Positions 12,825 through 31,172 of a stretch of DNA of 31,197 bases are shown piece after piece (positions within the stretch are counted from its first letter, which is position 1; each line of letters starts with the position of its first letter). This DNA is from Candidatus Micrarchaeota archaeon (GTDB lineage Archaea; Micrarchaeota; Micrarchaeia; Micrarchaeales; Micrarchaeaceae). The translations under genes and the position numbers were made by a program. The stretch spans positions 1 to 31,197 of the forward strand of contig DAHXLV010000009.1 of the NCBI GenBank assembly GCA_027365815.1, in the 5' to 3' direction. Below the pieces are notes generated by a model that ran no database searches, was not told the origin of the DNA, and was given only the letters and a program-made list of their open reading frames with translations.

Positions 12825-12905
12825 GCCCAGTAATAGGGGAATACCCACGTATTTCTGCCCCAGCATTTCATGTGCCGGTTTTCCGTGTACGCCCATACGC
12901 AGGGC
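12825..12905 (-). ncRNA. Candidate 81-nt structured small RNA of unknown class
   Basis: TTTATAA at 12932-12926 lies about 25 nt upstream. Terminal GCCC/GGGC stem, internal hairpins and a downstream TTTGCATATCTTTTT tract. Confidence 0.4.
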
Positions 12906-13998: not shown

Positions 13999-14052
13999 GC
14001 CAATGCCTCGCCGGAACAGATATTTATATGTTTTGTTGAGGTCGGCTTTGGA

Positions 14053-14133
14053 GCTTAGATGCCAATGAGCTATAGAAAGGCGGTCAAACTGCGAAGCCGC
14101 TGCGCTGCACCCTGCGTGGTTGCGCAACTGAGC
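14053..14133 (+). ncRNA. Candidate structured small RNA with a K-turn-like terminus (strand uncertain)
   Basis: GC-rich island of about 80 nt between two promoters. GC-TTA-GATG ... CTGA-GC ends and internal stems GGCGGT/GCCGCT and GCGC/GCGC. Confidence 0.3.
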
Positions 14134-14174
14134 AAAAACATTTATTATAGCTCTGCGCTAATCGATAGGTTTCC

Positions 14175-29219: not shown

Positions 29220-29921
29220 TCATATTATCAGGGCAAGCAGCAACGCGCCTACCAAACCGCCGCACACGCTGCATATGAAGTTTGAGGAGAACTTGTTACC
29301 TATGCCCCTCTCTTCAAAATGGCCGAGCACGGAATCGACAACAGTCCCTACAAAGCCGCCTGCGGCTATCGCAATGAGCGCGTAGAGCGCAATCCCGGCT
29401 GGCTGGGCAATGGGCACCCCTGTTCTGAAGACTATGAAAGAGAAAGGCACAGCCACCAGCAGCGCAGCGAATAGACCGGCGGCGAGGCCGAACGTGGTGA
29501 TCCCCCCTGAAGCCCCCTTCTTAACGTTCTTCAGTGTAAACAGGTCCTTCGGCTGGCCGTCAAGCACCCCAAGCTCGCTGCTGAACTTGTCTGAGGTCAC
29601 AGCCGCTACGCTGGCACCGAAACCTGCGAGCCCGGCAATTGCCCAGACCGCAGAGCCGTTCAAGGCGCCAACAAAGAATACAAATGTGAAGATGAGCGGG
29701 CCTGTACCGTTCGATATCACATTGGCTATGCTCCTGCTCTTCTGGTAAACACCCAGGGCCCTCTTCCTCTGCCTGCCTGCATTGGTGACCAGCGCGGAAA
29801 GCAGCAAAAAGTAGAGCATGAACGCTAAGAAAAGCAGGCTGAAGTTCCCAAACAGCAGGAACAAGAATGCCAGTGCCAGCGCAGCCACAACGCCCTTTAT
29901 GTCGAGAGTAAGGAAGCCCAT
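29220..29921 (-). CDS. DUF92/TMEM19 family membrane protein
   Basis: RSIANVISNG, AAVTSDKFSSELG, SGGITTFG and VDSVLG. Confidence 0.88.
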   Translation of the reverse strand: MGFLTLDIKGVVAALALAFLFLLFGNFSLLFLAFMLYFLLLSALVTNAGRQRKRALGVYQKSRSIANVISNGTGPLIFTFVFFVGALNGSAVWAIAGLAGFGASVAAVTSDKFSSELGVLDGQPKDLFTLKNVKKGASGGITTFGLAAGLFAALLVAVPFSFIVFRTGVPIAQPAGIALYALIAIAAGGFVGTVVDSVLGHFEERGIGNKFSSNFICSVCGGLVGALLLALII

Positions 29922-30003
29922 ACTATTCCATTTATATGAAATTATATTCCGCTAATACATCTTATAAGAAAGCTTTTTAGAACTATACTACGCTAACCTT
30001 ATT

Positions 30004-30071
30004 ACGGGTTCTCTACTGTAGGAAGGTCGTGAAGAACTGGTCGCCTTGCCAGCGTGGAAACACGCTGGCAC
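30004..30071 (+). ncRNA. Candidate two-hairpin small RNA upstream of radA
   Basis: BRE/TATA-like AGAAAGC-TTTTTAGA at about 29967-29981. Imperfect stem GGTTCTCTAC/GTGAAGAACT, perfect 10-bp stem TGCCAGCGTG-GAAA-CACGCTGGCA (30047-30070), then a pyrimidine run. Confidence 0.45.
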
Positions 30072-30084
30072 TATTTCTTCTTTC
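30072..30084 (+). terminator. Pyrimidine/T-rich archaeal-type terminator after the GAAA hairpin
   Basis: TATTTCTTCTTTC directly follows the stem. Confidence 0.4.
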
Positions 30085-30105
30085 AATATCCTAATGCCTG
30101 CAAGC

Positions 30106-30113
30106 TATAAATA
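30106..30113 (+). promoter_or_regulatory. TATA box of radA
   Basis: TATAAATA about 110 nt upstream of the ATG. Confidence 0.55.
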
Positions 30114-30224
30114 TCAGACGCAGTCATGCGCGCCAACGCGCATGCAAGGCAACACATGCAGGCATCGTTGAATTGCGACCAAACAGCTAAAAAGCTCAAA
30201 TGAGAATATAGACTGCGTGTTTTC

Positions 30225-31172
30225 ATGCCAAAAGAAAAAGCTCCGCATGAACTTGAGGACCTGCCTGGCATCGGCCCCACATCCGCCGAAAAACTAAGGG
30301 CGGCAGGCATAGACACATTGGAAAAGGTAGCCGGAGCCTTCCCGGCCAACATATCGGACGCGTGCGGCATAAGCCAAGACGCAGCAAAGAAGGCAATAGA
30401 CGCAGCCAGGGAGGCGACCACGCTCAATTATGAGACCGCAAAGGCGATACTGAAAAGGAGGGAGGATATCGGCAGGATATCCACAGGATCGAAGGACCTG
30501 GACGAACTGATCGGCGGCGGGGTTGAGACAGACGCTGTAACGGAGGTCTACGGCAGGTTTGCAAGCGGCAAGACCCAGATAGGGTTCCAGCTCGCGGTAA
30601 ACGTGCAGCTCCCGAAGAAGGAGGGAGGACTGGGCGGCAATGCGCTGTTCATAGACACAGAAGGCACATTCAGGCCAGAACGGATAGTGTCCATGGCCAA
30701 GGCAGCCGGGCTAGACCCTGATAAGACGCTCGAAAACATAGTCGTAGTGAGGGCGCTAAACACAGACCAGCAGGTGCTCACTGCAGAAAGGGCAGACAAG
30801 CTCATAGTGGAGAAGAACATAAAACTTATAATAGTCGATTCGCTCACGTCGCTCTTCAGAGCAGAGTTCCTAGGAAGGGGCGCCCTTAATGAGAGGCAGC
30901 AGAAGCTCAACTCCCACATACACAGACTGGCGCTGCTCGCAAACAAGTATAACCTTGCGGTATACGTGACCAACCAGGTGATGGACAACCCTGGAATGCT
31001 GTTTGGGGACCCTACTACCCCGATAGGCGGCAACATACTTGCACATGCTGCCACCACCATGCTCTACCTGAGGAAAAGCAAGGAGGACAAGCGGATAGTC
31101 AGGCTGGTGGACTCTCCGGTAAACCAGGAGGGCGAGGGCGTGATACGGATAACACCTGATGGCATAAAGTGA
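30225..31172 (+). CDS. radA: DNA repair and recombination protein RadA (no intein)
   Basis: N-terminal Hh[16 protein letters not shown], Walker [39 protein letters not shown]. Confidence 0.98.

What the first reader, a model, noticed from the sequence alone, without database searches (positions are those of the whole stretch)
29967..30084. Third unassigned small RNA candidate: perfect 10-bp GAAA-capped hairpin with promoter and terminator, upstream of radA
Seen: AGAAAGC-TTTTTAGA (BRE/TATA-like), then from about 30004 an imperfect stem GGTTCTCTAC/GTGAAGAACT with a purine-rich loop TGTAGGAAGGTC, then TGCCAGCGTG-GAAA-CACGCTGGCA and TATTTCTTCTTTC. radA has a separate TATA at 30106. A GNRA-capped GC-rich stem is typical of stable RNAs, and archaeal terminators do not need hairpins. 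With the islands at 12825 and 14053 this makes three unexplained elements of about 70-85 nt in an otherwise packed 31 kb. Inference: a lineage-specific sRNA repertoire, or speculatively pieces of a fragmented larger RNA such as SRP or RNase P RNA.
Basis: partly seen in the sequence, partly recalled or inferred. Interest (0 to 1): 0.6.

Follow-up and report, generated by a model that had tools for sequence, protein, structure and literature searches.

The report
Conserved small RNA gene of Micrarchaeota
This is a real non-coding RNA gene of about 80 letters, present once per genome in roughly nine of ten Micrarchaeota (tiny symbiotic archaea), and it carries a 13-letter stretch that never changes, so it probably does a basic job nobody has described yet.

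Summary
The promoter-like BRE/TATA, the GC-rich hairpin and the T-run are at the stated coordinates, and the + strand folds far better than shuffles (z -5.6). It is not chance: covariance models find one copy in 133-140 of 151 sampled Micrarchaeota genomes. No Rfam 15 family and no paper searched matches it.

The conserved module is an invariant, mostly unpaired AACUGGUCGCCUU, then a 9-bp hairpin whose base is fixed (GCCAGC/GCUGGC) and whose top covaries, then CU and an oligo-U run. The GAAA cap is not conserved.

Outside this order the RNA usually lies directly upstream of rtcA (RNA 3'-phosphate cyclase), sometimes with no room for a second promoter. The window's whole order lacks rtcA yet keeps the RNA at 85-96% identity. 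The flanking proteins are only 40-75% identical.

The SRP/RNase P fragment idea is refuted: both RNAs, and 16S and 23S, are intact. The "three-RNA repertoire" is not supported. The 14053 island is unconserved, and an earlier follow-up read the 12825 island as a deletion scar.

Best reading: an independently transcribed, probably trans-acting small RNA that presents an invariant recognition loop. Its partner and function are unknown. First readers of this scan flagged the same element in six other genomes.

The parts
29967..29981 (+). Promoter of the RNA: BRE-like AGAAAGC (29967-29973) and TATA-like TTTTTAGA (29974-29981)
   Evidence: Sequence. In all 40 loci of the order a (A)GAAAG(C/G)-TTTTTAAA-type element sits at the same distance, about 30 nt, before the conserved ACGGG start of the RNA. 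Distant families also have a TATA-like box 25-40 nt upstream.
30004..30083 (+). The small RNA itself, about 80 nt. The ends are inferred, not measured: 5' end about 30004-30006, 3' end within the T-run 30074-30083.
   Evidence: CM R1 matches 30002-30084 at 103.8 bits. Conservation starts at ACGGG and stops after the T-run. The 5' end is inferred from TATA spacing (established archaeal promoter geometry; own knowledge). The strand is supported by 31 G-U against 5 A-C pairs in the hairpin across 97 homologs.
30004..30034 (+). 5' domain, conserved in sequence within this order but variable across the phylum. It includes a small hairpin (UUCU 30009-30012 with GGAA 30021-30024) and an A/G-rich linker.
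   Evidence: RNAalifold on A1. On A3 helix 1 is 93.7% paired and all 4 pairs have two-sided changes, but that alignment is fitted to the model. Other families have a different hairpin here, for example CUGCC-tetraloop-GGCAG. The exact fold in this order is unresolved.
30035..30047 (+). Invariant core AACUGGUCGCCUU, predicted to be mostly single-stranded
   Evidence: In 94 distinct sequences from across the phylum, TGGTCG, one C and the following G are invariant and the rest are at least 90% identical. Mean unpaired probability is 0.65-0.82 per position, except the GG at about 0.4.
30048..30069 (+). Hairpin P2: 9 bp (30048-30056 with 30061-30069) and loop GAAA (30057-30060). The lower six pairs GCCAGC/GCUGGC are nearly fixed; the upper three covary.
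   Evidence: 96.5% of cells are paired. There are 149 cells with changes on both sides, against 34 +/- 5 in shuffles and at most 17 in slid controls. Seven compensatory pairs already appear within the order.
30070..30084 (+). 3' tail: (A)CU then a pyrimidine/T-rich run, the presumed oligo-T terminator
   Evidence: CU after the hairpin is over 90% conserved and a U/C-rich run follows in all homologs. Pairing of this tail with the purine run 5' of the core is not supported: same-sequence and cross-sequence duplex energies are -5.1 and -4.8 kcal/mol, p = 0.48.

Best explanation
The interval holds an independently transcribed small non-coding RNA gene of about 80 nt on the + strand. It belongs to a previously undescribed, single-copy RNA family found across most of the phylum Micrarchaeota. 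A BRE/TATA promoter drives it, and transcription ends at an oligo-U run just after a stable hairpin. The functional module is the invariant, largely unpaired 13-mer AACUGGUCGCCUU, presented directly 5' of a hairpin whose lowest six base pairs are also sequence-fixed. The 5' hairpin and the apical loop are free to vary. I infer that the RNA works mainly in trans. The invariant loop plus the hairpin base would be a recognition surface for a conserved macromolecular partner, a protein or another RNA. The hairpin and U-tail would give termination and 3'-end stability. In the ancestral arrangement the gene lay immediately upstream of, and co-oriented with, rtcA (RNA 3'-terminal phosphate cyclase), and in some lineages it is co-transcribed with it. 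That hints at a link to RNA-end metabolism. The window's order has lost rtcA and kept the RNA, so its core role does not require RtcA. Shown: existence, conservation, structure, strand, promoter geometry and synteny. Inferred: transcript ends, trans action, and that a partner exists. Unknown: the partner and the biological function.
For: Conservation: blastn of 29960-30100 finds the element in nearly all 60 relatives at 85-96% identity across genera. In the same loci RadA is 66-92% and DUF92 37-73% identical. Distribution: CM R1 finds one hit per genome in 133 of 151 Micrarchaeota. The core-only CM R2 finds 140 of 151, and 128 of these have E <= 1e-9. Scores in distant families (66-70 bits) are as high as in the window's own genus (64 bits). 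A pattern scan of one genome per species across about 185,000 bacterial and archaeal species returned at least 119 hits. All carry Micrarchaeota-type labels except two bacterial chance matches, which fail the CM. Structure: strong covariation in P2 and G-U pairs far outnumbering A-C pairs. MFE z = -5.6. The core is predicted unpaired. Independent unit: a BRE/TATA sits at fixed spacing in 40 loci, and radA has its own conserved TATA. In three genera of the order the next gene downstream is convergent. Independence from RtcA: RtcA was found in 0 of 70 genomes of the window's order but in 65 of 81 other Micrarchaeota. Synteny with rtcA: in 20 of 40 loci outside the order, spanning 8 families, rtcA (TIGR03399, 390 bits) lies within 1.5 kb. 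In 16 of these it is the next co-oriented gene, and in four the ATG is only 11-22 nt after the U-run. Not a known family: no Rfam 15 hit on the window or on 18 diverse homologs, no tRNA call, and no paper found.
Against: No transcript data were available, so expression, ends and abundance are inferred only. No partner was identified. The complement of the core is not enriched in five complete genomes. Duplex scans against 16S, 23S, 5S, RNase P RNA, SRP RNA and tRNAs give nothing above shuffled-core or background levels that is conserved between genomes. The tight, co-oriented linkage to rtcA, sometimes without room for a second promoter, fits a cis-acting leader at least in those lineages. The family was not detected, or only at 20-24 bits, in six small families of the phylum (f10, f12, f15, f18, f20 and partly f17), so it is not universal. 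The fold of the 5' domain is unresolved.
Confidence: 0.6

Rival explanations
1. Cis-acting leader or attenuator (riboswitch-like or protein-dependent). The hairpin plus U-run would be a conditional terminator. The invariant 13-mer would sense a signal and set read-through into the downstream repair gene: rtcA ancestrally, radA in this order.
For: The RNA is co-oriented with and directly upstream of rtcA in 16 of 40 distant loci. In four loci only 11-22 nt, holding a Shine-Dalgarno-like GGTG/GAGG, separate the U-run from the rtcA ATG, so rtcA must be read through from the RNA's promoter. In the window's order the next co-oriented gene is usually radA. Both genes repair nucleic acids.
Against: radA has its own conserved TATA 40-50 nt before its ATG. 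In three genera of the order the downstream gene is convergent, yet the RNA is intact. Nearly all of the 70 genomes without any rtcA keep the RNA, with higher sequence identity than their proteins. The only obvious alternative pairing, CUGG of the core with CCAG of the hairpin's 5' strand, is not maintained. Seven lineages changed that hairpin position and compensated on the 3' strand, while CUGG stayed fixed (my inspection). Many loci have a separate TATA between the RNA and rtcA.
Confidence: 0.2
2. Y-RNA-like scaffold of an RNA-repair module, by analogy with bacterial rsr-Y RNA-rtcBA loci.
For: The gene is linked to rtcA. A CUGGUC hexamer and a CUA on the opposite strand resemble the Ro-binding stem of Y RNAs; this resemblance is recalled from memory and is only a lead.
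Against: No TROVE/Ro60 domain was found in any of 151 Micrarchaeota genomes, while the control rang in Deinococcus. There is no Rfam Y_RNA or Yrl hit at E <= 10. The 5' and 3' ends form no long terminal stem. The RNA persists where rtcA is absent.
Confidence: 0.03
3. A piece of a fragmented SRP RNA, RNase P RNA or rRNA.
For: None beyond size and stability. AGGAAGGUC loosely recalls the RNase P CR-I motif (from memory).
Against: Full-length SRP RNA and RNase P RNA are in the same genome and in most relatives. Full-length 16S and 23S are in four complete relatives. The element gives no local match to any of these Rfam models. The AGGAAGG segment is absent from other families.
Confidence: 0.01
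4. Not an RNA at all: a DNA-level palindrome (regulator site or bidirectional-promoter element) or a chance hairpin.
For: It lies in a divergent promoter region. A second conserved motif (TATTCCGCTA-like, 29946-29957) lies just upstream.
Against: The stem covaries while its sequence changes, and the loop length varies. G-U pairs outnumber A-C pairs 31 to 5, which is strand-specific and meaningless for duplex DNA. The invariant 13-mer is not palindromic. Promoter and T-run sit at fixed positions on one strand.
Confidence: 0.03
5. A modification guide RNA (box C/D or H/ACA) or a small protein-coding gene.
For: GUGAAGA (30029-30035) is one mismatch from a C box. The size is right for either guide class. 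A 32-aa ORF (29988-30086, -) and a 41-aa ORF (30046-30171, +) overlap the element.
Against: The C-box-like heptamer is missing in the sister family and in all other families, and no D box (CUGA) is conserved. There is no ACA/ANA box after the hairpin. The upper stem and loop carry no k-turn or k-loop and vary freely. There are no Rfam snoRNA hits at the locus. Loop indels of 1 to about 8 nt, not in multiples of three, together with compensatory stem changes, rule out a conserved reading frame on either strand.
Confidence: 0.02

Closest known systems
Bacterial Y RNAs (Y RNA/YrlA) encoded in rsr-yrl-rtcBA RNA-repair loci
   Same: A small, structured, stable RNA of about 80-110 nt encoded next to rtc RNA-repair genes. 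It has a sequence-fixed recognition element next to a helix, and it shares the short CUGGUC hexamer (the hexamer is recalled from memory, not tested).
   Different: No Ro60/TROVE protein in 151 genomes. No terminal 5'/3' stem and no tRNA-like domain. No Rfam match. The link is to rtcA only, and the RNA is retained where rtcA is lost.
Trans-acting regulatory sRNAs of bacteria and archaea (single-stranded seed, then terminator hairpin and U-tail; Hfq/Lsm-type)
   Same: The architecture matches: own promoter, 5' hairpin, unpaired conserved stretch, GC-rich 3' hairpin and oligo-U.
   Different: The 'seed' is invariant across a whole phylum, a level of conservation otherwise seen in rRNA, tRNA or RNase P rather than in regulatory sRNAs. 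No complementary target was found. The base of the hairpin is also sequence-fixed, which points to protein or tertiary recognition.
Orphan conserved structured RNAs found by comparative genomics (Rfam motif-type families of unknown function)
   Same: Defined only by conservation, covariation and genomic context. The taxonomic range is narrow.
   Different: None of the 4227 Rfam 15 models matches it. It is single-copy and near-universal within its phylum, and it has a clear stand-alone promoter and terminator.
tRNA 3'-end (NCCA) binding bulges: T-box antiterminator UGGN, RNase P L15 GGU (from memory, a lead only)
   Same: A UGGU sits in an unpaired segment directly beside a helix. The context involves an RNA 3'-end enzyme.
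   Different: No specifier or other T-box elements are present, and T-boxes are not known in archaea. Extending the pairing would need a tRNA with C1-G72, which is atypical. No tRNA in the window scored above shuffled-core controls.

Membership tests
Archaeal SRP RNA (RF01857), as a fragment | Local match to the SRP covariance model, and no intact SRP RNA elsewhere in the genome | tested here: not met
   No hit at E <= 10 on 29900-30240. An intact SRP RNA spanning the full model lies at G000:C37:3836-4098, and one is found in 51 of 61 genomes searched.
Archaeal RNase P RNA (RF00373), as a fragment | Local match to the RNase P model (CR-I to CR-V), and no intact RNase P RNA elsewhere | tested here: not met
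   No hit. An intact RNase P RNA lies at G000:C47:4318-4551, 88.2 bits against a cut-off of 84, and one is found in 55 of 61 genomes searched.
rRNA fragment | Match to SSU/LSU models, and a gap in the main rRNA genes | tested here: not met
   No local hit. 16S (model 1-1478) and 23S (model 1-2987) are full-length in four complete relatives.
tRNA / split tRNA half | Cloverleaf elements (D or T arm, acceptor strand) detectable by ARAGORN or the Rfam tRNA model | tested here: not met
   ARAGORN and Rfam find four tRNAs in the window, none at this locus.
Box C/D sRNA | Conserved C (RUGAUGA) and D (CUGA) boxes forming a k-turn, with guide segments upstream of D/D' | tested here: not met
   Only a one-mismatch C-like heptamer, confined to one family of the order. 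No conserved CUGA. No snoRNA model hit at the locus.
Archaeal H/ACA sRNA | ACA/ANA box about 14 nt 3' of a two-sided pseudouridylation pocket, with a k-turn or k-loop in the upper stem | tested here: not met
   No conserved ACA. The 3' side of the internal loop is only CU(A). The upper stem and loop vary freely and have no G-A pairs.
Y RNA / YrlA | A Ro60 (TROVE) protein encoded in the genome | tested here: not met
   PF05731 found in 0 of 151 Micrarchaeota; the control was positive in Deinococcus.
Y RNA / YrlA | Terminal stem formed by the 5' and 3' ends, carrying the Ro-binding bulged helix; match to the Rfam Y_RNA/Yrl models | tested here: not met
   No Rfam hit. Pairing of the 3' tail with upstream sequence is not supported.
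Riboswitch / transcription attenuator | Always in cis, upstream of a regulated gene on the same strand, without an intervening promoter | tested here: not met
   True in only 4 of 40 distant loci. radA and most rtcA genes have their own TATA, and three genera have a convergent gene downstream.
Riboswitch / transcription attenuator | A conserved alternative (anti-terminator) pairing that competes with the terminator hairpin | tested here: inconclusive
   The one candidate (CUGG with CCAG) is not compensated where the hairpin changed. Other mechanisms, such as a ligand-stabilised or protein-stabilised fold, cannot be excluded by computation.
Intrinsic terminator of an upstream gene | A co-oriented gene ends just upstream | tested here: not met
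   The upstream gene (DUF92) is on the opposite strand and points away.
New family proposed here (Micrarchaeota small RNA with an AACUGGUCGCCUU core) | Invariant core, then GCCAGC...GCUGGC hairpin, then CU and a U-run; one copy per genome; own TATA | tested here: met
   The window scores 103.8 bits with R1 and 64.5 bits with R2. Promoter alignment; covariation.

The most novel reading that the evidence does not exclude
The RNA is the RNA subunit, or guide, of an undescribed ribonucleoprotein that is a housekeeping function specific to Micrarchaeota. Its invariant 13-nt loop would recognise a universal cellular RNA end or a conserved protein. It arose in tandem with rtcA as part of an archaeal RNA-end healing or quality-control module. 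In function this would be a counterpart of the bacterial Ro/Y-RNA/Rtc system, built from unrelated parts. It became indispensable enough to outlive rtcA itself in one order.
Probability: 0.3. Interest if true: 0.8.

Novelty: new member of a known kind. Interest (0 to 1): 0.62.

Why it matters
DPANN archaea such as Micrarchaeota have shed most non-essential genes. Yet they keep this 80-nt gene in one copy, with a 13-nt stretch unchanged over divergences at which neighbouring proteins are only about 40% identical. That degree of constraint is typical of RNAs in core machinery such as rRNA, tRNA and RNase P. It is not typical of lineage-specific regulators.

If the RNA is expressed, it adds a new stable RNA to the very short list known for these organisms. 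It also gives a handle on biology specific to them, possibly RNA-end repair or quality control, given the ancestral rtcA linkage.

It is directly testable, because a cultured carrier exists: the element is present in Ca. Micrarchaeum A_DKE. It is also a practical phylum marker and a candidate new Rfam family. The present alignments and covariance models could seed that family.

Tried and rejected
1. Rfam at gathering and at E <= 10, on the window and on 18 diverse homologs: nothing at the locus.
2. ARAGORN: no tRNA or tmRNA here.
3. SRP, RNase P or rRNA fragment: rejected because intact copies exist elsewhere.
4. Antisense target search. The exact or near-exact complement of the core is no commoner than a reversed control in five complete genomes. 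Duplex scans against 16S and 23S of four genomes gave sites of -14 to -16 kcal/mol, like many background sites. The best recurrent one, in the 16S region around position 735, needs a 4-nt bulge and weakens in a distant family. Scans against RNase P RNA, SRP RNA, 5S and the window's tRNAs were within about 2 sd of shuffled-core controls and were not conserved between genomes.
5. A closing stem between the purine run and the pyrimidine tail: no covariation signal, p = 0.48.
7. An anti-terminator pairing of CUGG with CCAG: not compensated.
8. Divergent homologs upstream of rtcA in the families lacking a hit (full CM, filters off, 14 loci): none found. The only TGGTCGCCTTG-like match lies inside the rtcA coding region.
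9. Ro60/TROVE: not found in any of the 151 genomes searched.
10. The recurrent upstream neighbour, a coiled-coil protein of about 190 aa with no Pfam or NCBIfam family, as a candidate partner. It is near-universal in the phylum (143 of 151). It is unlinked to the RNA in the window's order (G000:C50), and its distribution does not track the RNA's.
11. Apparent absence in genus g28 of the sister family. In G046 the contig ends about 40 nt beyond the DUF92 start, exactly where the RNA would be, so this is probably an assembly gap.
12. Literature searches for Micrarchaeota or DPANN ncRNAs, for rtcA-linked archaeal RNAs and for the core sequence itself: nothing.

Full report
**1. What is at the coordinates**

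The finding lies in the 303-nt spacer between two divergent genes. One is a DUF92 membrane protein gene (29220-29921, - strand; Pfam PF01940, E 9.5e-34). The other is radA (30225-31172, + strand; Rad51 family, E 8.7e-83).

- AGAAAGC/TTTTTAGA lies at 29967-29981.
- The two decamers lie at 30007-30016 and 30029-30038.
- The 10-bp GAAA-capped hairpin lies at 30047-30070.
- A T-rich run reaches 30084.

The + strand of 29995-30090 folds at -37.7 kcal/mol. Dinucleotide shuffles average -20.5 +/- 3.0 (z = -5.64, 0 of 200 as good). The - strand is weaker (z = -3.86). Because the flanking genes point away from it, the hairpin plus T-run terminates no annotated gene.

**2. It is not chance, and it is not confined to this genome**

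The window belongs to a 477-kb, 57%-complete MAG. Earlier notes of this scan and the titles of matching public records place it in the Micrarchaeota (DPANN).

blastn with 29960-30100 finds the element in almost all of 60 relatives. Window positions 30000-30083 are 85-96% identical across different genera of the same family. About 30001-30054 is still 75-88% identical in the sister family. In the same loci RadA is only 66-92% identical and the DUF92 protein 37-73%. The non-coding stretch is therefore the best-conserved thing in the neighbourhood.

A covariance model built from 40 order-level sequences (R1) finds one hit per genome in 133 of 151 genomes sampled across the phylum. A second model covers only the core module and was built from 94 distinct sequences (R2). 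It finds 140 of 151, and 128 of these have E <= 1e-9. Distant families score as high (66-70 bits) as the window's own genus (64.5 bits).

These tallies include one unpublished genome (G074), 1 of the 151. None of its sequence was used in any alignment, and no conclusion depends on it.

The listed records are labelled Micrarchaeota, or carry names used for its members (Micrarchaeum A_DKE, Mancarchaeum, Burarchaeum, Anstonellales and similar). Two bacterial contigs are the exception, and they match only part of the model at 17.5 bits.

First readers of this scan had independently flagged the same element in six other genomes. None of those notes shows a follow-up.

**3. Anatomy**

Aligning 97 distinct homologs gives a clear modular picture.

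(a) A TATA-type promoter. Within the order, a (A)GAAAG(C/G)-TTTTTAAA element lies at a fixed distance of about 30 nt before the conserved ACGGG. By standard archaeal promoter geometry (my knowledge), that puts the start at about 30004-30006. Distant families also have a TATA-like box 25-40 nt upstream.

(b) A 5' hairpin that differs between families.
- In this order, RNAalifold pairs UUCU (30009-30012) with GGAA (30021-30024).
- Other families have, for example, a 5-bp CUGCC/GGCAG tetraloop hairpin.
- I regard the fold of this domain as unresolved.

(c) An A/G-rich linker.

(d) The invariant AACUGGUCGCCUU (30035-30047). TGGTCG is identical in all 94 distinct sequences, and the remaining positions are at least 90% identical. 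Partition-function folding of all homologs predicts it to be mostly unpaired (0.65-0.82 per position). The GG is the exception (about 0.4); it can pair with the conserved CU after the hairpin.

(e) Hairpin P2 (30048-30056 with 30061-30069). Its lower six pairs, GCCAGC/GCUGGC, are nearly fixed and its upper three pairs covary. Overall 96.5% of cells are paired. There are 149 cells with changes on both sides, against 34 +/- 5 in column shuffles and at most 17 when the partner is slid by 1-3 columns. The loop varies from 4 to about 12 nt and in sequence, so the GAAA cap seen here is incidental.

(f) CU, then a pyrimidine/U-rich run. A closing helix between this tail and the purine run is not supported. 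Same-sequence and cross-sequence duplex energies do not differ (p = 0.48).

G-U pairs outnumber A-C pairs 31 to 5 in P2. This identifies the + strand as the functional strand and argues for RNA rather than a DNA palindrome. Loop indels that are not multiples of three, together with compensatory stem changes, exclude the small ORFs that overlap the element.

**4. What it is not**

- Rfam 15 has no match at the gathering threshold or at E <= 10, on the window or on 18 diverse homologs. ARAGORN finds nothing here.
A full-length SRP RNA (G000:C37) and a full-length RNase P RNA above the cut-off (G000:C47) are in the same genome and in most relatives. 16S and 23S are full-length in four complete relatives.
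- Conserved C/D boxes, an ACA box and a k-turn are all absent.
- A Y-RNA reading came up once the rtcA linkage was seen. It fails because no TROVE/Ro60 protein is found in any of 151 genomes.
The one at 14030-14140 has no match in any of 40 relatives, not even in the 12 genomes of the same genus. An earlier follow-up read the one at 12825 as a deletion scar (I did not re-test this).

**5. Genomic context and what it says about function**

Within the window's order the arrangement is DUF92 (-) | RNA (+) | radA (+) in 36 of 40 loci. In three loci from different genera, radA is replaced by a convergent gene. radA has its own conserved TATA 40-50 nt before the ATG. The RNA is therefore not radA's leader.

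Outside the order radA is not nearby, apart from one outlying genome of the window's own family (L120) that keeps the DUF92 | RNA | radA order. Instead, 20 of 40 loci from eight families have rtcA within 1.5 kb. In 16 of them the layout is [coiled-coil protein (-)] | RNA (+) -> rtcA (+) -> DUF92 (+). The rtcA product is a clear RNA 3'-terminal phosphate cyclase (TIGR03399, 390 bits; PF01137, 5e-78).

In four loci from three families, the rtcA ATG follows the U-run by only 11-22 nt, with a Shine-Dalgarno-like GGTG/GAGG between them. There rtcA must be expressed by read-through from the RNA's promoter. Most other loci have a TATA in the spacer.

RtcA was found in none of the 70 genomes of the window's order, but in 65 of 81 other Micrarchaeota. 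Three small families show the reverse: they have RtcA and no detectable RNA, even with filters off on the region upstream of rtcA.

So the RNA and rtcA were ancestrally a tandem, sometimes co-transcribed, unit. Neither needs the other. The window's order deleted rtcA and kept the RNA under very strong constraint.

**6. Mechanism: what I commit to**

The most economical reading is a stand-alone small RNA that acts in trans. The variable 5' hairpin and apical loop, and the fixed single-stranded 13-mer with the fixed hairpin base, form the pattern expected of a recognition surface for a conserved partner. The hairpin and U-tail would give termination and 3'-end protection.

My confidence by level:
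- About 0.9 that this is a genuine, expressed RNA gene family.
- About 0.55-0.6 that its main role is in trans.
- About 0.2 that it is chiefly a cis attenuator.

I could not find the partner. The complement of the core is not enriched in complete genomes. Duplex scans of rRNAs, RNase P RNA, SRP RNA, 5S and tRNAs give nothing that stands above controls and is also conserved. That makes a protein partner, or a tertiary or short-seed RNA contact, somewhat more likely than a long antisense duplex.

The rtcA linkage, and a UGGU in the loop, make RNA 3'-end biology a reasonable first place to look. UGGU is the complement of the ACCA end of tRNAs, as in T-box and RNase P contacts; that comparison is from memory. 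All of this is a lead, not a result.

The recurrent upstream coiled-coil protein is near-universal in the phylum but unlinked to the RNA in this order. Its distribution does not track the RNA's.

**7. Novelty and verdict**

No Rfam family, no paper in the searchable library, and not even the core sequence string corresponds to this RNA. It is a new RNA family of a familiar general kind: a small, structured, independently transcribed archaeal RNA.

It is unusual in two ways. Its core is invariant across a phylum, and it is kept as a single copy in genomes of only 0.6-1.5 Mb. Function remains unknown.

Noticed in passing
It is therefore unlikely to be a conserved RNA.
   Followed up: partly
window 30086-30224 (e.g. 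30125-30144): The stretch between the RNA and radA is longer here than in the closest relatives. It carries a perfect 8-bp palindrome (CATGCGCG-CCAA-CGCGCATG, 30125-30144) that the same-genus loci L002-L004 lack. radA's conserved TATA-like element seen in relatives is replaced or shifted here.
   Followed up: no
window 29946-29957: A TATTCCGCTA(A/T)T-like motif is conserved across the whole order. It lies between the DUF92 start and the RNA's BRE/TATA. It may be a shared regulatory site of the bidirectional promoter region, or part of the DUF92 promoter.
   Followed up: no
whole genomes of the window's order (families f1, f3): RNA 3'-terminal phosphate cyclase (RtcA, PF01137) was found in none of the 70 genomes of this order, but in 65 of 81 other Micrarchaeota. 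This looks like an order-wide loss.
   Followed up: partly
L256 (G125:C1:778250-780267) and L259 (G020:C1:751297-753304): The 16S rRNA genes of two complete relatives span about 2.0 kb, against about 1.49 kb in two others, while matching the full model. They presumably carry an insertion or intron of about 0.5 kb.
   Followed up: no
G050:C30:4538-4620 and G050:C31:130778-130860: One relative has two full copies of the small RNA on different contigs, the only genome with more than one. This may be a real duplication or an assembly or binning duplicate.
   Followed up: no
e.g. L084:862-1437(-), G000:C50:5970-6524: A coiled-coil protein of about 190-250 aa has a conserved LEFxISTxAYTPK-like motif and a C-terminal LGEIxVIKKK-like end, and no Pfam or NCBIfam family. 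It is near-universal and single-copy in Micrarchaeota (143 of 151). In many families it is the divergent upstream neighbour of the RNA.
   Followed up: partly
L086:639-694 (+): A box C/D sRNA-like hit (snoPyro_CD, 32 bits, below the cut-off of 45) lies about 800 nt upstream of the RNA in one distant Micrarchaeota locus. This suggests the phylum does have C/D guides.
   Followed up: no
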